Origin: a virus
Lineage: Duplodnaviria > Heunggongvirae > Uroviricota > Caudoviricetes
Virus record (IMG/VR): IMGVR_UViG_2737471841_000006
Span: 1-21,794 of that record
Length of the DNA: 21,794 nt
Reading direction: 5' to 3' (one strand)
The stretch's first letter is position 1, and the number at the start of each line of letters is the position of its first letter. The position numbers and the translations under genes were made by a program. Positions 1,553-9,923 of this stretch are shown here, one piece after another. The notes beneath the pieces were generated by a model. That model made no database searches, was not told the DNA's origin, and worked only from the letters and a program-made list of their open reading frames with translations.

Positions 1553-1741
1553 TCACGAGGACTGAAGTTTCTCGCAATTAAAATTTATCAGTTTTACTTT
1601 CTGCTCTCTGGAAACGCCTGCTTCTTTTTTACCTGAGAGCATTTTTTCGCATTCTGATTTCGTTAGTTTAGATTTTGAATATCTTGTCCAGTTAGTAGGA
1701 GTGCCACCTTCCTTTTCAATTGTAGCGGTAATTTTATACAT
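1553..1741 (-). CDS. ydaC: Rac prophage YdaC-like small protein
   Basis: Minus-strand ORF downstream of ralR. Start placed at ATG 1741..1739 (MYKITATIEKEGG..) because a GGAGG Shine-Dalgarno lies 7 nt upstream inside the last ralR codons. Alternative starts at 1753 or 1813. Confidence 0.5.
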   Translation of the reverse strand: MYKITATIEKEGGTPTNWTRYSKSKLTKSECEKMLSGKKEAGVSREQKVKLINFNCEKLQSS

Positions 1742-1984: not shown

Positions 1985-2818
1985 TTATTCTTCTGGATTA
2001 TCGATTACACTGTATTCCCCGGCTATAACCGATATGTCGTCTGGATTAATTGTTTCCACCTCTTTTCCATCCATCGATACTGCACGCTGGATTTCAATAG
2101 ATACCGGCAGATACTTGAACAGTTTTCGTATCACTGTCTTTTTGGCCATGTCTTCAAAGTGTTCATCCCAGATGGACGACGCCCCTTTTGACGCTGCGTT
2201 TTTTGCCGCCTTGCTGTGTGTGTCGCGAACTTTTTCTACTTGTTTGCTGGTCATGACTTCAAACTGCACTCCTCCGTCTTTCAGTTTTGCAACAGCATAG
2301 ACATGGGTTATAGGGGCATCTTCGTTTTCACCGGGACGATGAACCAGTTTTTCATCAAGGCCAAGTTCATAGCTGAATTCATCACATTCACGGACAACAC
2401 GAGCTGACAGACTGATGATTTGACCTGATCGACGGGCAAGGTCGATCATGCCGCGATAACCGATGATCAGCTGTACGTTCTTCTTACCGTTTTTTGCTTT
2501 TCCGTTGCCGAACGGTAGCAGATATGCATGACCGAGGGCGCTACCTGGCTCAAGTCCGAGCTGTGAACACTGTACGATGGCACCGATAAAACTCGTCGAG
2601 TCACAGTTTCTTAGTTCCGGTACTTTACGGATTTCTGTTGTAGCAATGCGGATCATGCGTTCCGCTGTCATGTGACGTGGCAGAGCTGCTGCCAGTTGCG
2701 CTTTCATTGCCGGGCTGTTAATCACGCACAGCACATCCTTATCGTTAACTGCTGCTGGTGCACGGTTTCCCTGAGTTTTTTGCAGATCGGCTTTTGCGAT
2801 AGGTGGTTGCTTAGTCAT
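1985..2818 (-). CDS. recT: Recombinase RecT (single-strand annealing protein)
   Basis: ORF beginning [24 protein letters not shown].. and ending ..[11 protein letters not shown], recognisable as RecT. ATG 2818..2816 overlaps the recE stop (2813..2811) by 8 nt, the classic recE/recT coupling. Track ORF extends to 2875. Confidence 0.93.
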
Positions 2819-5462
2819 TTGCATACTCCTTAGCCCAGCGGGGCAGTGATAACGTCTTAATAGCTGGCCATTCATCGGTATTTAGGCAGTCAGCCAGGGT
2901 CCGCAGATTGCGGTGATATTCCTGCTGGCCTGCCAGTTTTGCTTCTTCGCCCATCATGAAAATCTCAACCGGATAACGTCCGCATTCAACAGTTGTGCTG
3001 GCAACCAGAAAAACGAAAGTTGGCTGCACACCAAACTGTGCTTCATAACCGTCACTGTAGAATGCATCCTGAACGTGATAGCGGTAGTCGTAATAAGCCA
3101 TTTTGAATCGTTGAATATCCGCTGTGGTTTTCACGTCCATGATCCAGTGAAATTCAGGAATAATTTTGTCCGGACGGCACCGACACAAAATTCCTGTTTC
3201 CGGATCTTCCCAGTAAATTGATGATTCAGCGTGTCCGGCGCTTTCAACAAGCCATTGCCCCAGCGGCAAAGCCATAACGCTTTGATACATGAGTTCAATT
3301 TTCCGGCCTTCTTCCGCAGTGATAACCGTTTTTCCTGTGCTTGCGCATTCCATCAGAAACGCTTTCTCTTCTTCTTTTCCGGCGTTTGTACGGCGGTTAA
3401 ATTCAGGTGCTACGATAAAGCGGTTACTGAATTCTTCCGGTTCAAGTACCCGGCAGTGGAAAGCGGTTCCTAAATCGAGCGTTTTTGTCTTTGTAGTGTC
3501 CACGGGGGCATTTTTACGCCACAAATACAGTGCCGGAGTATCAGCAATGTCATCGAGCTGAGACTTACTGACACCGGGACCCGCGTGGTAATTCTCATTC
3601 GAAATTCCGTAATAAATACCTGGCTCTATGTCTTCTACGATTACGGGATCTGCGACTTCGCCAGTTTCATCACTGCAATCGCGATGCGGATCGCTGCCAG
3701 CATTCTCATTGTGCGGATGTTCAGCGCCTTCCATTTCCTCCGGATCTTTTTCCTTAGCTTCAACCTGATTCTCTTCACCGAATGTTTCCTGGTATGTTGC
3801 GTCGCCCATCACCGCACCACAGTCAGGGCAGTTATCCCCGCCAGTCTGACCGCAGGCATTGCAGACTATTTCCGGTTCCTGTTGCACTACTGGCTCAGGT
3901 TGTTTCGCATCCGGGCTGATTTTTTCCGTTTCTGGCTGGTTCTGGTACACAGAATCGCGAGTCTGGATCCCCTTAACCCATTTCGGATCGTTCGGGTCGC
4001 TAATTCCGTCAACAAATTCACCACGTGATGCAGCAAGCAATTTATCGGCATCGACAGGATTTTTTGATGGAATGTTTTTCCGGGCTTCATGGAGTTCTGC
4101 CCGCAGTTCCTGATATTTCGCATCAACAGAATTTACCTGTGACTGAGCATCCAGCGGCTGCGTGTTCTGATGATGTTCAGTTGCATTCGGTTCCACTGTT
4201 TCAGCCGTTGCCTGTTCATCTGCCATTGCGCCAGATGGTTGTGGCTTTTCTTCATCGTCCTGTTTTCCTTCTTCTGTTACTCGCTGCGGCATCGGGGCCG
4301 AGGAGCGACCGCAGGCAATATCCACGATTTCCGGATCAGGGTTGGCATGATCGATTTCAGTCAGTACTTTGTTCAGATATTCAGTGACGTGTGCGGGGAT
4401 GACCTCGATCCCAATTGGTGCTTCTTTCACGGACGCAACCACGATGGCGCGGGAATAATCCAGCCCGCCAGGCATGGTGATGAATTTGTCGCGGAAAACA
4501 GAAAAGGGTGGTTTATTTTCAGCGATAATTTCCTCAATGCGTTTAGCGTGTGCCGGATGAAGGTTATAGATGTCCACGTCCATTGAACGGGCCAGTACGC
4601 CAGTGGCTACATCGCGCGCCAGTGACGTCAGATCGTGGACGAAACCTTCGCCGCGATCGGTGAGGTTCCCGCCGCCAGCATTAGCACCGGAAGCCGTGCG
4701 AGTGATGCGTGAAACACGATTCCCTTTTCGCCATTCTTTTGTCAGAAGACCGCGATCAATGTGTTCGGTATCCAGCCAGGCTGAAATGAAATTCTTAAAT
4801 TCATAGGGCTGATGTTTTTTCGTGATAGAGAACACTGCCTTAATTGCATCAGTCAGGCGGAGCAGGGCGGCATTATCCAGAGTTGTCGGTTCTGCCATGC
4901 TGCGTATGGCCAACAGCAGATTCTGGACATAGCTGTTTTCCTGATCCATCTCAAGAGCAGTAATGTGTTTGCGTTGTTCACGGGTGGCATGGTGCAGGTA
5001 TTTTCGATCCCCGGCTGCATACGTAAAAATGTGCAGAAGACGCTGCGTAAACCGCAAAGTGGCTACAGAGACTTCGCAATCCGGGCAATCCCCGTGAGCG
5101 CCTGCCAGTGTGTTTTCTTCCTGCCCTCCCGTCAGTTCTTCGGTTTCCTGGGCATTCTCCTGATGGTGAGCGTCGTCTGGTGCTGCTCCCGGTTTTAGTT
5201 CCCATGTCATGGAGTCTTTGCTGAGTTGATAGCGTTCACTCCAGGTAAAATCGATCTCACCTTCAGGGGGCAGGTCATTAACGACAGGAAAATTAGTGGC
5301 AACAGCTTTAAAATAGCTGCTCAGTTTTTTACCTGATTTGACGATCAGGTAGTCCAGAGTGGCGCAGGTCGATTCAAAATCGTCGCTTGCCCACAGGACG
5401 ACGTCAGGTTCACCGGATGATTTTTTCGCTTTCCGTAACAGGAAGAGTGGTTTTGCGCTCAT
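2811..5462 (-). CDS. recE: Exodeoxyribonuclease VIII (RecE), 883 aa
   Basis: Large minus-strand ORF; N-terminus [26 protein letters not shown].. and C-terminus ..[31 protein letters not shown] match RecE as I recall it. Central region appears divergent (mosaic) relative to my memory of the K-12 protein. Confidence 0.93.
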
Positions 5463-6084: not shown

Positions 6085-6305
6085 CACCATGATTCCGCTT
6101 TTACAGGTAAACCATCACGACCGAGGAAGACTTTAATCATGCAGTCAGAAATGCATGTTTTTGTAGTCAGGCTACGAATATAAAGTTTTCGCTTTTTAAT
6201 ATTGTTTGCCGAGGCGATATATGTCCGACCTTCATGAAGAACATAATCGCCAGGGGTTACACACTGACGTGGTATTTCATCAGTTCCGAAGTGATGAGCA
6301 ATCAT
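6084..6305 (-). CDS. kilR: Killing protein KilR (FtsZ-targeting cell division inhibitor), 73 aa
   Basis: [76 protein letters not shown] matches K-12 KilR as I recall it. GGAG lies 6 nt upstream of ATG 6305..6303. Two further in-frame ATGs at 6311 and 6317. Confidence 0.8.
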
Positions 6306-6744
6306 AATCATCTCCATTTTTTCAAATGAACTTTGTTGATGCGGTGCCTAGTGCCTCCAGGTGATGTTAACCAGTTAACAATTAACACCGGATACAAATA
6401 CCCCCCCAAACTAATATAGAGTTTTTTAACTGTTCCGCGTGCGCTTAGCCGCATTCACCGCATCACAAAATTCACTTTAAAAAGGGCGGACATCAGTCGA
6501 ACTTCAAGAAAAAACCGATGCCGCCAAAGACTACACACAGCAATGTCGTTATTCACAACCGGAGGCGCACTCCCACCATTTATATTTAACAGACAAGACC
6601 GACTCTTTATTGATACCGGAAATGCGCCTTCGTGTTGTGCCCGGTTTTATTTCACCACCTCCGGGCTTCGGTGGTCTCGGCTATACCCCTACAGCGAGAG
6701 CTTGTGTTAACATTTCAATACCCTTACAGTCGAGAGTTATTGAA

Positions 6745-7234
6745 ATGTTGGATGTATTTACTCCATTGTTGAAACTTTTTGCTAAAGAGCCACATCGAAA
6801 GACTTATGTACACGATTATCATTTTTGGCCTCACTCTCTGGCTGATACCGAAAGAGTTTGCTGTCGTATTTAATGCTTATACTGAAATAACCTGGCTCTT
6901 TCAGATTATAGTTTTTGCCTTTTCTTTCGTGGTTGCCATTTCCTTCTCAAGATTGCGAGCACATATTCAAAAACATTATTCATTGCTACCAGAGCAACGA
7001 GTATTGCTTCGTTTATCTGAGAAAGAAATCGCTGTATTTAAAGATTTCCTTAAAACAGGAAATCTTATTATCACTTCTCCTTGCCGTAACCCGGTTATGA
7101 AAAAATTAGAACGGAAGGGCATCATTCAACATCAGAGTGATGGCGCAAACTGTTCTTATTATCTCGTCACCGAAAAATACTCCCACTTTATGAAGTTATT
7201 CTGGAACAGTAGGAGCAGACGTTTTAATCGTTAG
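6745..7234 (+). pseudogene. sieB: Superinfection exclusion protein B (sieB), reading frame broken by an apparent 1-nt insertion near 6792-6796
   Basis: MLDVFTPLLKLFAKEP (frame of ATG 6745) switches frame and continues as ..IERLMYTIIIFGLTLWLIPKEF..SRSRRFNR in the 6779..7234 ORF. 16 + 1 + 145 residues gives 162 aa, the intact SieB length. First in-frame ATG after the shift is at 6806. Confidence 0.6.
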
Positions 7235-7386
7235 CTTACTGTGTACTTCTCCAACCAGCGACGCGCGCCAACTTCGGTTTTAAACGTTTTGCTTTTGGTA
7301 TACGTCATGGCGGTGAACGTTCCATCCTGGTTGGGGAACACGCCACACACCAGGGATTCGTTGTTGCTAAGATCGATAGTATCCAT
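7231..7386 (-). CDS. ydaF: Rac prophage small protein YdaF-like, 51 aa
   Basis: ORF MDTIDLSNNESLVCGVFPNQDGTFTAMTYTKSKTFKTEVGARRWLEKYTVS from ATG 7386..7384, with AAGGGA upstream. TAA stop at 7233..7231 overlaps the sieB TAG (7232..7234) on the opposite strand. Confidence 0.65.
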   Translation of the reverse strand: MDTIDLSNNESLVCGVFPNQDGTFTAMTYTKSKTFKTEVGARRWLEKYTVS

Positions 7387-7517
7387 GTTGACCTCATTTT
7401 CCCTTAACGCTGGGGGAATTGGCTTCATAGTTGCTCCGTATCGTGGAGCCTACGACCTGCTTTTAACCACATCAGGTGAGGTGATATCCTTACAAATGGT
7501 AATTTGCTGTAAGGATA

Positions 7518-7796
7518 TTAATTATGGATATTAAATTTCGCTGTCCTCATTGCCGATCTCGCTACATTGAGATCGACGAGCACTCTGGCTCTGACAATGA
7601 TCGTTTTATCTGCGGTGATTGTTTTGCGGAAATCAAAGATTCTGATTTCAGTGAACACTTTAATAAAACAATCAATAAAATCATCCGGACAGTTAAAAAC
7701 CGCAGGAACAAGTAGTTTGTATAACTTCTCAATCTGATGTCTCAGGGGGCTGGTATCTATTTTTAACACCAGTCCCTGCTTTTCATCTGCGATCAT
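7518..7796 (-). CDS. ydaG: YdaG-like protein, 92 aa here; first gene of the putative leftward early operon
   Basis: ORF MIADEKQGLVLKIDTSPLRHQIEKLYKLLVPAVFNCPDDFIDCF.. with TAAGGGA 7 nt upstream of ATG 7796..7794. Lies directly downstream of the PL-like promoter and operator repeats. A plus-strand ORF fully overlaps it (see findings), so the true coding strand is uncertain. Confidence 0.45.
   Translation of the reverse strand: MIADEKQGLVLKIDTSPLRHQIEKLYKLLVPAVFNCPDDFIDCFIKVFTEIRIFDFRKTITADKTIIVRARVLVDLNVARSAMRTAKFNIHN
7524..7715 (+). CDS. Candidate 63-aa zinc-ribbon mini-protein antisense to the ydaG-like ORF
   Basis: ORF MDIKFRCPHCRSRYIEIDEHSGSDNDRFICGDCFAEIKDSDFSEHFNKTINKIIRTVKNRRNK. Has a CxxC-x17-CxxC arrangement, a basic C-terminal tail, and AAGGA Shine-Dalgarno 8 nt upstream of the ATG. 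Called on sequence features only. Confidence 0.35.
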   Translation: MDIKFRCPHCRSRYIEIDEHSGSDNDRFICGDCFAEIKDSDFSEHFNKTINKIIRTVKNRRNK

Positions 7797-7867
7797 CTTC
7801 GTATCCCCTTAACGCCGGGTGGCGGAACTGTTTGCTGAGAACACCGTGCGGTGTTTTGATGGGATGT

Positions 7868-7896
7868 AATTTAGTTTTCTCATTGTTTTTGGTCAA
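7868..7896 (-). promoter_or_regulatory. Putative sigma70 leftward early promoter (PL-like): -35 TTGACC, 17-nt spacer, -10 TAAATT on the minus strand
   Basis: Minus strand reads TTGACC(7896..7891)-17 nt-TAAATT(7873..7868), about 70 nt upstream of the ydaG-like ATG. Operator-like repeats lie in the spacer and over the -35. Confidence 0.35.
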
Positions 7897-7932
7897 GTGT
7901 TTTTGATGAGAAAACTCAATATTTGACTCAAG
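7871..7932. promoter_or_regulatory. Left operator-like cluster: repeated TGAGAAAACT / CTCAA(T/G) motifs (putative RacR binding sites)
   Basis: 7871-7885 ttagttttctcattg (reverse complement caatgagaaaactaa); 7906-7920 atgagaaaactcaat; 7927-7932 ctcaag. The 17-mer tgagaaaactcaatatt recurs exactly at 8443-8459 on the other side of racR. Confidence 0.4.
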
Positions 7933-7983
7933 ATAAAGCCAATACATTGAAATGTAAGGCTTTAAAAATTTGTGATGGGGTGA

Positions 7984-8391
7984 TTATTGATGTTTGTTAC
8001 GCTTGCGAGCTTCTAATAGCTCAGTAAATAGGCGATTAAAATTCTCAACTCGAGCGCTGAGTTCACTGATTTGTGCTTGTTGTTCGGATTTTGGAAGTGC
8101 GCGATACAGTCGCAACATCTCCAGTTCATCTTCCGATAAGTCTAAGGTGCTATTGAGTGAAACTGGGGCATCCGGAGTTTTATCCTCATCACCGAACAGT
8201 ATCCAGGTCGGTGAGCATTGTAATACCTCGGCGAGTCTATGCAAATTTTGCCCGCGCGGGGCTGTATGGTCACTTTCCCATAATGAAATTGATGAGCCAG
8301 AAACGCCAGCAGCTTTGCTTAAACCACTTTGACTTAAGCCTACCTGCTTGCGTCTTTCTCTAATTCGTTGACCTAAAGTTTTCTCGTTCAT
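7984..8391 (-). CDS. racR: Prophage repressor RacR-like (XRE-family helix-turn-helix), 135 aa from this start
   Basis: ORF MNEKTLGQRIRERRKQVGLSQSGLSKAAGVSGSSISLWESDHTAPRGQNLHRLAEVLQCSPTWILFGDED.. has a typical XRE HTH at the N-terminus. Divergent from the cro-like ydaS and flanked by operator-like repeats. Upstream in-frame ATG at 8442 (152 aa) is an alternative start; neither has a clear Shine-Dalgarno. Confidence 0.75.
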   Translation of the reverse strand: MNEKTLGQRIRERRKQVGLSQSGLSKAAGVSGSSISLWESDHTAPRGQNLHRLAEVLQCSPTWILFGDEDKTPDAPVSLNSTLDLSEDELEMLRLYRALPKSEQQAQISELSARVENFNRLFTELLEARKRNKHQ

Positions 8392-8412
8392 ATTTAGATA
8401 TCTTAATAACCC

Positions 8413-8458
8413 TTGACTTGAGATTCCTTGAGCGATTAACATTGAGAAAACTCAATAT
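8413..8458. promoter_or_regulatory. Right operator/promoter region: PR-like promoter (-35 TTGACT 8413-8418, -10 TAACAT 8437-8442) overlapped by palindrome ATTGAG-AAAA-CTCAAT (8441-8456)
   Basis: TTGAG half-sites at 8418, 8428 and 8442, with inverted CTCAAT at 8451-8456. GGAGG Shine-Dalgarno (8460-8464) and ydaS ATG (8469) follow immediately. Confidence 0.4.
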
Positions 8459-8468
8459 TGGAGGTGCA

Positions 8469-8597
8469 ATGTTTAAATCAGACGTAATTAATTATTACGG
8501 CACGAAAGCCAAAGTGGCGAAAGCTGCTGGCGTTGATCCATCTGCTGTTTCTCAATGGGGGGAAGCCGCAAACGATCGTCGGTTTCAAAATTGGTAA
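8469..8597 (+). pseudogene. ydaS: Cro-like HTH protein stub (YdaS-like), 42 aa; probably truncated at a deletion junction
   Basis: Hand translation gives MFKSDVINYYGTKAKVAKAAGVDPSAVSQWGEAANDRRFQNW then stop; not in the track (<60 aa). Good GGAGG Shine-Dalgarno. Only the HTH portion is present, a G6 run sits at 8557-8562, and a terminase frame takes over immediately. Confidence 0.5.
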
Positions 8598-9543
8598 TGC
8601 GCTGGTGGATGAACTGGACATTTTGCCGAAGGAAAAAGCCAGAACTGCGTGGCGCAAGATAATTGCGCGTATGCGTTATAAGGTTGATGGACTTCGCAAC
8701 GGTATTGACGTTACAACCACGCCAGAAGGATTCAAATTTGTCTACGAGCAGTTTGTTAAAGCCGTGCGTGAAAAAACAGAGTTGTCCTCACTGTATGGTC
8801 TGGTGCAGGCATCTACTTTCGATAATGAAAAGAACCTGCCAGCAGATTACATTCCTTCGCTTCTTGAATCATACCCTCCAGAGCTGATTAAAGCCTATCT
8901 TCGTGGACAGTTTACGAACCTGACAAGTGGTACTGTTTACCATCAGTTTGACCGGCAACTGAATAATTGCGAAGAAGTGGAGCAGCCTGGGGAGCCGATT
9001 TATATCGGGATGGATTTTAACGTTGGAAAGATGGCGGGGATCGTCCATGTGCTGCGTTTGGGTCTTCCATGTGCGGTAACTGAAATCATCAATGCCTACG
9101 ATACGCCGGATATGATCCGTATCATTAAAGAACGCTTCTGGCTGTATGACGGAAATGATTACCGGAAGGTGAGAGAAATTTATATTTATCCTGATGCCTC
9201 CGGGGATTCCCGAAAATCAAATAATGCAAGTGCGACGGATATTGCTCAGCTTAAACAGGCCGGTTTTAACGTTGTGGTGAACAGTTCGAACCCGCCAGTA
9301 AAAGATCGCGTTAACTCAATGAATGCAATGTTCTGCAATGCCAATGGCGAGCGTCGCTATAAAGTTAATGTGAAGCGTTGTCCGGTATATGCCGAATCTC
9401 TGGAGCAACAGGTCTGGGATGATAAGGGGGAGCCTGATAAAAAATCTGGCAACGATCACCCGAATGATGCAGGAGGTTATTTCATCGTTAAACAATTCCC
9501 TATTGTCAAACCGACCGGAAGAGTCACATCACTTCGGATTTAA
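8533..9543 (+). pseudogene. Terminase large subunit, N-terminally truncated fragment (Walker B-like segment plus complete nuclease domain; no Walker A)
   Basis: 336-aa frame with ALVDELD (Walker B-like) and nuclease-domain acidic motifs IYIGMDFNVG, IYPDASGD and GNDHPNDAGGY. No GxxxxGK(S/T) P-loop anywhere. Frame is open from 8488 with only a TTG at 8533. Sits directly after the cro-like stub, where replication and lysis genes would be expected. Confidence 0.6.
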
Positions 9544-9545
9544 TT

Positions 9546-9923
9546 ATGGCTGATATATCAACACCCAACCTCGACTATAACGATATGCTGGAGGCGTGGG
9601 ATATTAACGACGCACTGATGGGCGGTACGCTTGAAATGCGCAGGCAGGGAGAAAATTATCTCCCAAAATGGCCTAACGAAGATGAAGACGCTTATAAAAA
9701 ACGCCTGTCCGTGGCTACGCTACTTCCTGTGTATGAAGAAAGCATTAAGCAAAATATTGGGCGCATATTTGCAGAGCCGACAGTATTGAGTGAGGAAACG
9801 CCGGAAAAAATCAGGGAATATGCAGAAAATATCGACATGGAGGGGAGCCGACTGGATGTGTGGGCGCAGCAATTTTTCAGCCTCGCATTTCAGTATGGTG
9901 TGGCACATGCGCTGGTGGATTAA
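9546..9923 (+). CDS. Hypothetical 125-aa head-module protein; possibly the N-terminal stub of a portal protein
   Basis: ATG overlaps the terL stop (TAATTATG). Position (after terL, before scaffold-like and capsid genes) is where a 500-700 aa portal gene normally lies. No Shine-Dalgarno; followed by a strong intrinsic terminator. Confidence 0.35.
   Translation: MADISTPNLDYNDMLEAWDINDALMGGTLEMRRQGENYLPKWPNEDEDAYKKRLSVATLLPVYEESIKQNIGRIFAEPTVLSEETPEKIREYAENIDMEGSRLDVWAQQFFSLAFQYGVAHALVD

What the first reader, a model, noticed from the sequence alone, without database searches (positions are those of the whole stretch)
7231..7234. Convergent sieB and ydaF share overlapping stop codons (TTAG)
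sieB (+) ends with TAG at 7232-7234 and ydaF (-) ends with TAA at 7233-7231. The genes meet tail-to-tail with no terminator between them, implying transcriptional interference between sieB and the leftward early operon.
Basis: seen in the sequence. Interest (0 to 1): 0.28.

Follow-up and report, generated by a model that had tools for sequence, protein, structure and literature searches.

The report
Overlapping stops of sieB and ydaF
Two convergent genes of a defective Rac-type prophage, sieB and ydaF, really do share the four bases TTAG as overlapping stop codons. This junction is already annotated in E. coli K-12 and already listed as an overlapping-transcript pair, so it is an ordinary, known feature.

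Summary
TTAG at 7231-7234 holds the TAG stop of the sieB frame (+) and the TAA stop of ydaF (-). RefSeq annotates the same 4-nt overlap in E. coli K-12 (b1353/b4527). It is invariant in 79 of 80 viral-contig relatives and in five E. coli chromosomes checked.

It is the joint where sieB, a low-GC prophage accessory gene, sits antisense directly behind ydaF. ydaF is the first gene downstream of the repressor gene, in the position lambda N holds. Lambda (sieB/N, 0-nt gap) and P22 (sieB/24, 20-nt gap) have the same layout. More distant SieB loci have gaps of about 50-400 nt, so the overlap itself looks like a by-product of a compact mosaic joint.

- A 2025 RNA-seq survey (ExcludonFinder) already lists sieB-ydaF among the convergent pairs with overlapping transcription in MG1655.
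- Interference itself is untested.
- A marginal terminator hairpin lies inside the sieB 3' end.
- kilR has its own start site.
- sieB and the leftward operon are probably active at different times.

In this window sieB carries a +1 frameshift at 6794. Only a 142-codon form starting at Met21 stays open, and Met21 aligns with the start of P22 Esc. This allele is common in E. coli.

Verdict: already known, low interest.

The parts
7231..7234 (.). TTAG: overlapping stop codons (sieB TAG 7232-7234 on +; ydaF TAA = complement of 7231-7233)
   Evidence: same junction
6806..7234 (+). Intact part of sieB: 142-codon ORF from Met21, covering the whole Pfam SieB domain. Met21 aligns with the P22 Esc start (Met25).
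   Evidence: identical to P0030, which is on record in 483 blocks of the collection
6745..6873 (+). Broken 5' part of full-length sieB: ATG 6745, extra A at 6794 (+1 frameshift), premature stop at 6871-6873
   Evidence: absent from 80 IMG/VR relatives but present in L094-L099
7231..7386 (-). ydaF (DUF1391), 51 codons. An alternative upstream ATG at 7428 would give 65 aa.
   Evidence: homologues of 50-52 aa in other phages
7169..7217 (-). Candidate intrinsic terminator for ydaF, embedded in the last ~20 codons of sieB: 10-bp stem, long loop, then UAUUUUUCGG
   Evidence: (dG -15.5 kcal/mol, z -2.0, 6/200 shuffles as good): marginal
6625..6755 (-). Segment homologous to the P22/lambda sieB promoter and sas antisense-RNA region. 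It has two CTGTA(G/A)GGGT boxes and an ACCACC..GGTGGT hairpin.
   Evidence: structure inconclusive
6707..6751 (+). Hairpin in the sieB leader whose 3' arm contains the full-length start codon (ATG 6745)
   Evidence: dG -14.3, z -2.75, 1/200 shuffles
6478..6577 (-). Homologue of K-12 sRNA KilS / kilR 5' UTR, with a strong intrinsic terminator (hairpin 6484-6525 plus U-tract)
   Evidence: dG -18.8, z -4.2, 0/200
7518..7796 (-). 92-codon ORF that PGAP calls as a hypothetical protein between the repressor and ydaF. It competes with a + strand 63-codon CxxC..CxxC ORF at 7524-7715. Which one is real is unresolved.
7745..7787 (+). First plausible + strand terminator-like hairpin downstream of sieB, about 510 nt past its stop
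   Evidence: dG -16.5, z -2.15, 8/200
7868..7896 (-). Sigma-70-like promoter match (TTGACC-17-TAAATT) downstream of the repressor gene: candidate early-left promoter
   Evidence: consensus match only; 6 found against 6.3 expected in the region
7984..8391 (-). HTH_3 repressor gene (CI/RacR position)

Best explanation
This is the compact 3'-to-3' joint between two transcription units of a Rac-type prophage.

sieB is a low-GC, prophage-type accessory gene ('moron'). It lies antisense inside the repressor-controlled early-left region, immediately behind ydaF, the first gene of that region. The mosaic boundary lies about 15 nt inside the ydaF 3' end. The last 4-5 codons of ydaF and its stop therefore come with the sieB side of the joint. 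The two stops happen to interlock as TTAG, which only needs a T before TAG.

Because no intergenic DNA is left, each transcript must end inside or beyond its partner. This makes a convergent, 3'-overlapping pair (a 'convergent excludon').
- ydaF transcripts may stop at a weak hairpin about 60 nt into sieB.
- sieB transcripts are predicted to run antisense across all of ydaF.

The expected result is mutual dampening by RNA polymerase collision and by antisense pairing with RNase III cleavage. sieB should win while the repressor keeps leftward transcription low, and leftward transcription should win after derepression.

Shown: the anatomy, its conservation, the mosaic boundary, and published transcript overlap in K-12.
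Inferred: where transcripts end in this strain, and any regulatory effect.
For: - Stops and ORFs. Family matches.
- Identical junction in K-12, E21845, 79/80 relatives and 5 chromosomes.
- ydaF homologues are the first gene after the repressor in mEp460, HannyBb and Serratia phage OS31, where sieB is absent and co-directional genes follow.
- YdaF length is constant at 50-52 aa. Only the last 4-5 residues differ between sieB-linked and sieB-free versions, and DNA homology to the sieB-free phages starts at about window 7250.
- GC content steps from 37.2% (sieB) to 48.7% (ydaF) at the joint.
- Same layout in lambda (sieB 34482..35036 +, N 35037..35438 -) and P22 (sieB ..30336 +, gene 24 30357.. 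-).
- No + strand structure better than shuffles in the three stretches tested within about 240 nt after the sieB stop. Marginal - strand hairpin plus U5 inside sieB.
- sieB-ydaF is listed as a convergent excludon in MG1655 (PMC12288877).
- Head-on RNAP collision is documented as a termination route for convergent E. coli pairs (bioRxiv 10.1101/2022.10.23.513370).
Against: - No transcript data exist for this strain.
- The excludon listing is a coverage-based call with no experiment specific to this pair. Its supplements could not be read.
- More distant SieB loci have gaps of 167 nt and about 50-400 nt, so the overlap is not a conserved requirement of the family.
- Rho-dependent termination cannot be predicted here. 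No C>G bias was seen.
- kilR has its own promoter in K-12, so leftward flow across sieB may be small.
- This prophage is defective: cro is truncated and fused to a truncated terminase gene. The lytic-phase half of the model may never operate in this host.
Confidence: 0.6

Rival explanations
1. Neutral joint. The overlap and any read-through transcription are by-products of mosaic recombination and genome compaction and have no regulatory consequence. sieB and ydaF are simply expressed at different times.
For: - The overlap is cheap by chance once the genes abut.
- The gap varies from -4 to about 400 nt across SieB loci.
- All copies are identical by descent.
- The hairpin differences between the window and K-12 are synonymous changes that do not covary.
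Against: - The antisense position directly behind the first early-left gene recurs in lambda, P22 and Rac, although their SieB proteins are only about 27% identical.
- Transcript overlap is reported in most K-12 data sets.
Confidence: 0.3
2. P22-like sas/Esc switch. Leftward transcription entering sieB through the terminator-free joint yields, or boosts, an antisense RNA over the sieB leader. This RNA blocks translation of full-length SieB while the Met21 short form (Esc-like) continues, so the missing terminator is functionally required.
For: - The DNA upstream of sieB aligns with the P22 sas region and with lambda.
- The internal Met aligns with the P22 Esc start.
- A leader hairpin encloses the full-length ATG.
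- Secondary sources describe the sas switch and the in-frame Esc (PMC12197685; PMC3224144).
Against: - The origin of sas (own promoter or processed PL transcript) could not be checked because the primary papers are not held.
- The consensus structure is weak with almost no covariation.
- No Rfam family matches.
- No expression data exist for Rac.
Confidence: 0.12
3. Annotation artefact: ydaF is not a real gene, so the 'overlap' is one real stop next to a chance ORF.
For: ydaF is only 51 codons and has no known function.
Against: - Pfam DUF1391 E 2.1e-27 and PHROG 751 E 5.6e-34.
- Homologues at 55-64% identity with conserved length and position in Serratia, Pantoea and Salicola phages.
Confidence: 0.03

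Closest known systems
E. coli K-12 Rac prophage sieB (b1353) / ydaF (b4527), listed as a convergent excludon (ExcludonFinder, NAR 2025, PMC12288877)
   Same: Orthologous DNA with the identical TTAG junction and flanking sequence. Same gene order: kilR, KilS, sieB, ydaF.
   Different: - K-12 has an intact 162-codon sieB. The window has a +1 frameshift at 6794.
- Homology to K-12 ends at the ydaF start codon. K-12 has ydaG and racR to the right, whereas the window has a different ORF and repressor.
- The window's prophage has lost everything between cro and the middle of the terminase gene.
Phage lambda sieB / N junction
   Same: sieB lies antisense in the early-left operon, tail-to-tail with its first gene, with no intergenic DNA (0 nt). 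Both proteins match Pfam SieB. The NEPLER-MY motif around the internal Met and the upstream box CCCTACAGCGAGA are shared.
   Different: - The partner gene is N (an antiterminator), not a DUF1391 protein.
- The stops abut rather than overlap.
- The SieB proteins are only about 27% identical.
Phage P22 sieB-esc-sas module
   Same: - sieB converges on gene 24, the first early-left gene.
- An internal in-frame start (Esc, Met25) aligns with Rac Met21.
- The sas antisense region aligns with window 6625-6755.
   Different: - The gap at the 3' joint is 20 nt.
- sas, Esc and the translational switch have been demonstrated only in P22. Nothing has been tested for Rac.
- The window lacks an intact full-length SieB frame.

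Membership tests
Convergent excludon (3'-overlapping convergent transcription units) | Adjacent genes on opposite strands facing each other | tested here: met
Convergent excludon (3'-overlapping convergent transcription units) | Transcripts of the two genes overlap | not testable with these tools
   Reported for the K-12 orthologues in at least 50% of 58 RNA-seq sets (PMC12288877). No data for this strain.
Convergent excludon (3'-overlapping convergent transcription units) | Terminator of one gene lies inside the partner's transcription unit | tested here: inconclusive
   The - strand hairpin plus U5 at 7217-7169 is only marginal (z -2.0). The three + strand stretches tested across the ydaF antisense region and just beyond it (7235-7470) fold no better than shuffles.
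Convergent excludon (3'-overlapping convergent transcription units) | Mutually exclusive expression, RNase III dependence | not testable with these tools
   Needs expression experiments.
SieB superinfection-exclusion protein (Pfam PF14163) | Match to the family profile above the curated cut-off | tested here: met
   142-aa form: E 6.7e-30, 104 bits against a cut-off of 26, profile positions 1-142 of 147. PHROG 6399 E 4.7e-69 for the intact relative.
SieB superinfection-exclusion protein (Pfam PF14163) | Intact full-length reading frame | tested here: not met
   +1 frameshift at 6794. The ATG 6745 frame stops at 6873.
P22-type sieB-esc-sas module | Internal in-frame start giving an N-terminally shortened Esc | tested here: inconclusive
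   Met21 aligns with P22 Met25 (Esc) and with the start of the Pfam domain. Translation from it has not been tested.
P22-type sieB-esc-sas module | Antisense RNA (sas) across the sieB leader and start codon | tested here: inconclusive
   Sequence homology to the sas region is present. The consensus structure is weak (-6.5 kcal/mol, covariation term -0.2). There is no Rfam family and expression is unknown.
P22-type sieB-esc-sas module | sieB antisense within the early-left operon, tail-to-tail with its first gene | tested here: met
YdaF / DUF1391 (Pfam PF07151) | Match to the family profile above the curated cut-off | tested here: met
   E 2.1e-27, 95 bits against a cut-off of 27.3
Bidirectional intrinsic terminator between convergent genes | GC-rich hairpin flanked by an A-tract and a U-tract at the gene boundary | tested here: not met
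   There is no intergenic DNA. 7235-7300 folds no better than shuffles (z 0.37), and the scan found nothing at the joint.

The most novel reading that the evidence does not exclude
The terminator-free sieB/ydaF joint exists so that early-left transcription, from this prophage or a superinfecting relative, runs antisense through sieB to the conserved sas-like leader segment. There it would flip translation from full-length SieB to the Met21 short form, as in P22.

On this reading, the widespread frameshift allele seen here is a natural 'Esc-only' variant. Its carriers would no longer exclude phages and might even protect relatives from exclusion.
Probability: 0.12. Interest if true: 0.4.

Novelty: already known. 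Interest (0 to 1): 0.13.

Why it matters
It matters little as a discovery. The overlap is in the reference annotation of E. coli K-12, and the pair is already catalogued as having overlapping convergent transcription.

Its value is as an example of how accessory genes are slotted antisense into phage early operons with no spacer. It also gives a practical warning: annotation pipelines call the 142-residue short form as 'SieB' in hundreds of E. coli genomes where the full-length frame is broken.

If the short form acts like P22 Esc, such strains may lack SieB-type abortive infection, or even counteract it. That would be relevant to predicting phage susceptibility.

Tried and rejected
- Rfam at gathering thresholds over the whole window found only RalA (1557-1735). 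Nothing was found near the junction or for sas or KilS.
- The consensus promoter and terminator scan gave numbers close to shuffled expectation. I replaced it with an energy-based hairpin plus U-tract scan and shuffle-controlled folds.
- tblastn of Rac SieB against 50,697 phage records found only three near-identical prophage-derived phages. Lambda SieB finds the Rac type at only 26.7% identity and does not find P22. The lambda and P22 geometry was therefore read from their annotations.
- My first P22 coordinates were wrong because the source paper uses a different origin. I mapped sas by exact string match instead.
- The primary papers of Ranade & Poteete (1993) and the Thomason & Storz review are not held. 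The origin of sas is therefore unverified.
- The ExcludonFinder supplements are not held. Overlap length and nanopore confirmation for this pair are unknown.
- The 63-aa + ORF and the 92-aa - ORF at 7518-7796 have no tblastn matches in phages, so the coding strand is unresolved.
- RNAalifold on the sas-like alignment was inconclusive with 5 sequences.
- No complete E. coli genome in the collection covers more than 69% of window 6300-9600, so the source strain was not identified.
- The window's 151-aa TTG-started product is not on record. The 142-aa product is.
- I considered YdaF as an N-like antiterminator because of its position. I rejected this because it has no arginine-rich N-terminus and only the DUF1391 match.

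Full report
**1. Observation**

Window 7231-7234 reads TTAG.
- The + strand ORF 6779..7234 ends in TAG at 7232-7234.
- The - strand ORF 7231..7428 ends in TAA, the complement of 7231-7233.
- The + ORF matches Pfam SieB (E 6.7e-30 for the 142-aa form).
- The - ORF matches DUF1391/YdaF (E 2.1e-27). PHROGs agree.

RefSeq annotates the same 4-nt overlap in a 99.7%-identical relative, E. coli E21845 (sieB 7346..7834 +, ydaF 7831..7986 - in L001). It does the same in K-12 MG1655 (sieB 1418671..1419159, ydaF 1419156..1419311). The junction is present with a -4 gap in 79 of 80 IMG/VR relatives; the exception has a premature stop in ydaF. It is also present in five E. coli chromosomes whose gene calls show sieB 2501..2929 (+) and DUF1391 2926..3081 (-).

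**2. Is it more than chance?**

If a + strand gene ends in TAA or TAG, the - strand reads a stop in the -4 register whenever the preceding base is T or C. That frequency is 0.49 in this window. So once two convergent genes abut in the right frame, interlocked stops are cheap. Convergent overlaps are a known minority class, about 7% of 42,055 well-characterised overlaps in 338 genomes (PMC2478687). The many copies of this junction are identical by descent, so they do not count as independent evidence of selection. If the TAA were lost, ydaF would extend 23 codons into sieB.

**3. What the junction is**

ydaF homologues, all 50-52 aa, are the first gene downstream of the repressor gene in phages mEp460, HannyBb and Serratia phage OS31. 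That is the position lambda N occupies. In those phages ydaF is followed by co-directional genes with no sieB.

The match to those phages stops 4-5 residues before the YdaF C-terminus. DNA homology begins at about window 7250. sieB is 37.2% GC and ydaF is 48.7% GC. The joint is therefore a mosaic boundary. A low-GC sieB cassette sits antisense directly behind the first early-left gene, and the last few ydaF codons and its stop belong to the sieB side of the boundary.

| Locus | Converging partner of sieB | Gap between the stops |
|---|---|---|
| Rac type (this window) | ydaF | -4 nt |
| Lambda | N | 0 nt (sieB 34482..35036 +, N 35037..35438 -) |
| P22 | gene 24 | 20 nt (sieB 29758..30336 +, gene 24 30357..30659 -) |
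| Metagenomic relative, 34% identical (L092) | uncharacterised 162-aa gene | 167 nt |
| Yersinia type, 69% identical (L090) | repressor is the next called gene | 406 nt; an uncalled 37-aa ORF ends about 50 nt away |

Position and orientation are conserved across the family. The overlap itself is specific to the Rac lineage.

**4. Terminators**

A -4 junction cannot hold a terminator, so 'no terminator between them' is true by construction. The folds, with shuffled controls, are below.

| Region | Strand | dG (kcal/mol) | z | Shuffles as good | Reading |
|---|---|---|---|---|---|
| 7235-7300 | + | -10.6 | 0.37 | 125/200 | none |
| 7318-7370 | + | -13.4 | 0.00 | 95/200 | none |
| 7410-7470 | + | -15.6 | -0.75 | 43/200 | none |
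| 7738-7792 (hairpin 7745-7778, then CUUUUCAU) | + | -16.5 | -2.15 | 8/200 | first plausible + strand candidate |
| 7165-7230 (hairpin 7217-7177, then UAUUUUUCGG) | - | -15.5 | -2.0 | 6/200 | marginal |

The - strand hairpin lies inside the last ~20 codons of sieB. Its differences from K-12 are synonymous sieB changes that do not covary. No C>G bias suggesting Rho loading was seen on either strand. The prediction is that sieB RNA runs antisense across all of ydaF, while ydaF RNA may stop about 60 nt into sieB.

**5. What is already known about transcription here**

ExcludonFinder (NAR 2025, PMC12288877) lists sieB-ydaF among 165 convergent pairs with overlapping transcription units in at least 50% of 58 MG1655 RNA-seq data sets. 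Of the 165, 146 have predicted terminators lying inside the partner's unit.

Head-on RNA polymerase collision is documented as a termination mechanism at convergent E. coli gene pairs (bioRxiv 10.1101/2022.10.23.513370). No experiment shows reciprocal repression for this particular pair.

**6. Limits of the 'leftward early operon' reading**

- K-12 annotates an sRNA, KilS, as the kilR 5' UTR (1418502 to 1418405, - strand), and it can be transcribed from its own promoter.
- The window keeps this region nearly unchanged, including a strong terminator (hairpin 6484-6525, z -4.2, 0/200 shuffles).
- kilR and the genes beyond it therefore need not depend on transcription that crosses sieB.
- This prophage is also defective. 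The Cro-like ORF is cut after profile position 32 of 60 and is followed by a terminase large-subunit ORF that lacks its first ~86 profile positions.
- Whether sieB and leftward transcription are ever strongly active together in this host is unknown.

**7. sieB in this window is not intact**

Compared with E21845 and K-12, the window has an extra A at 6794 (CCACATCGA against CCAC-TCGA). The full-length frame from ATG 6745 stops at 6873. The frame that reaches the TAG is open from ATG 6806, which is Met21.

The Pfam SieB domain starts exactly at Met21. Met21 aligns with P22 Met25, the annotated start of Esc, the in-frame SieB inhibitor (PMC3224144).

- The frameshift is absent from 80 IMG/VR relatives.
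- The 142-aa product is identical to P0030, which is on record in 483 blocks of the collection, including complete E. coli chromosomes, and is named 'superinfection exclusion B family protein'.
- Six loci checked carry the same insertion.
- A 162-aa allele, P0031 (62 contigs), reads ...AKEPHRKLMYT.... That is the same +1 followed 9 nt later by a -1 that restores the frame.

**8. Link to the P22 sieB-esc-sas system**

The published P22 sas sequence (PMC13397905) maps to the - strand of P22 at 29636-29762. It starts 5 nt inside the sieB ORF and covers its start codon, leader and promoter. Lambda has nearly identical DNA there. The window, K-12 and the Yersinia-type locus align to it over about 110 nt. 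The shared features are two CTGTA(G/A)GGGT boxes, an ACCACC..GGTGG hairpin and an A-rich tail. This holds although the lambda and Rac SieB proteins are only about 27% identical.

The consensus structure is weak (-6.5 kcal/mol, almost no covariation), so only sequence conservation is established. A + strand hairpin at 6707-6751 encloses the full-length start codon (z -2.75). A P22-like translational switch in Rac is thus plausible. Whether it depends on leftward read-through from the 3' joint could not be checked, because the primary papers are not held.

**9. Verdict**

- Observation: confirmed.
- Interpretation: partly supported. The architecture and the transcript overlap hold. Interference itself, and the claim about the operon, are unproven.
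- Novelty: already known. The overlap is in the K-12 annotation, the pair is in the 2025 excludon list, and the classic lambda and P22 layouts match it.
- Best explanation (confidence about 0.6): a compact mosaic joint that forces 3'-overlapping convergent transcription. The TTAG overlap is incidental.
- Main rival (0.3): the same joint with no regulatory consequence.
- Most novel reading not excluded (about 0.12): the terminator-free joint feeds a sas-like switch, and the common frameshift allele is an Esc-only variant.

Noticed in passing
window 6745-6873 and 6806-7234 (extra A at 6794): sieB carries a +1 frameshift. Only the Met21-started 142-aa form is open, and Met21 aligns with the P22 Esc start. 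This exact product (P0030) is on record in 483 blocks of the collection, including complete E. coli chromosomes, and is annotated there as SieB. A compensated allele (P0031, 162 aa, ...AKEPHRKLMYT...) restores the frame 9 nt downstream.
   Followed up: yes
window 6625-6755, - strand: The DNA upstream of sieB aligns with the P22 sas antisense-RNA / sieB promoter region and with lambda. It shares two CTGTA(G/A)GGGT boxes and an ACCACC..GGTGG hairpin, although the SieB proteins are only about 27% identical. Structure support is inconclusive.
   Followed up: partly
window 6707-6751, + strand: A 13-bp hairpin (dG -14.3, z -2.75) pairs the full-length sieB start codon (ATG 6745) with upstream leader sequence. 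The second conserved box sits in its loop. It is a possible translational control element.
   Followed up: partly
window 6478-6577, - strand: Homologue of the K-12 sRNA KilS (kilR 5' UTR), with a strong intrinsic terminator (hairpin 6484-6525, dG -18.8, z -4.2). It has no Rfam family.
   Followed up: partly
window 7460-7476, + strand: A 17-nt exact match (CTTTTAACCACATCAGG) to the lambda segment just upstream of sieB lies between ydaF and the next ORF (0.02 matches expected by chance). It may be a short conserved linker at a mosaic boundary, or a second copy of the sas 3' hairpin element.
   Followed up: partly
window 7485-7517: A perfect 10-bp inverted repeat (TATCCTTACA ... TGTAAGGATA) with a 13-nt spacer lies just upstream of the + strand ORF start at 7524 and overlaps its AAGGA ribosome-binding site. 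It could be an operator or a translational hairpin.
   Followed up: no
window 7518-7796: Two ORFs compete on opposite strands. PGAP calls the 92-aa - strand ORF, which has no family hits. The + strand 63-aa ORF (7524-7715) has a CxxC...CxxC zinc-ribbon pattern, a good ribosome-binding site, weak Lar_restr_allev and PHROG 5602 hits, and a terminator-like hairpin after it (7745-7787). Neither has tblastn matches in the phage collection.
   Followed up: partly
window ~8564 (ORFs 8418-8597 and 8533-9543): There is a prophage deletion. The Cro-like gene is cut after about half of its domain, and the sequence continues into a terminase large-subunit ORF that lacks its N-terminal ~86 profile positions. 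The whole early-right, replication and lysis region present in E. coli E21845 is missing.
   Followed up: partly
window 1557-1735, + strand: RalA, the antitoxin sRNA of the RalR type I toxin-antitoxin system, is present (Rfam RF02694, 218 bits against a gathering score of 170).
   Followed up: no
window 7387-7428, - strand: ydaF has an in-frame upstream ATG at 7428 with a GGAG ribosome-binding site, which would give 65 aa instead of the annotated 51 aa. PHROG 751 matches YdaF at profile positions 20-68 of 70, so some family members are longer at the N-terminus.
   Followed up: no
L090 3046-3159, - strand (Yersinia-type sieB locus): An uncalled 37-aa arginine-rich ORF (MTQQTQVPQPSVKGNSKQAGRPRSSRQRRMKSWMICW) converges on sieB and ends about 50 nt from the sieB stop. 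Its arginine-rich stretch resembles that of an N-type antiterminator.
   Followed up: no
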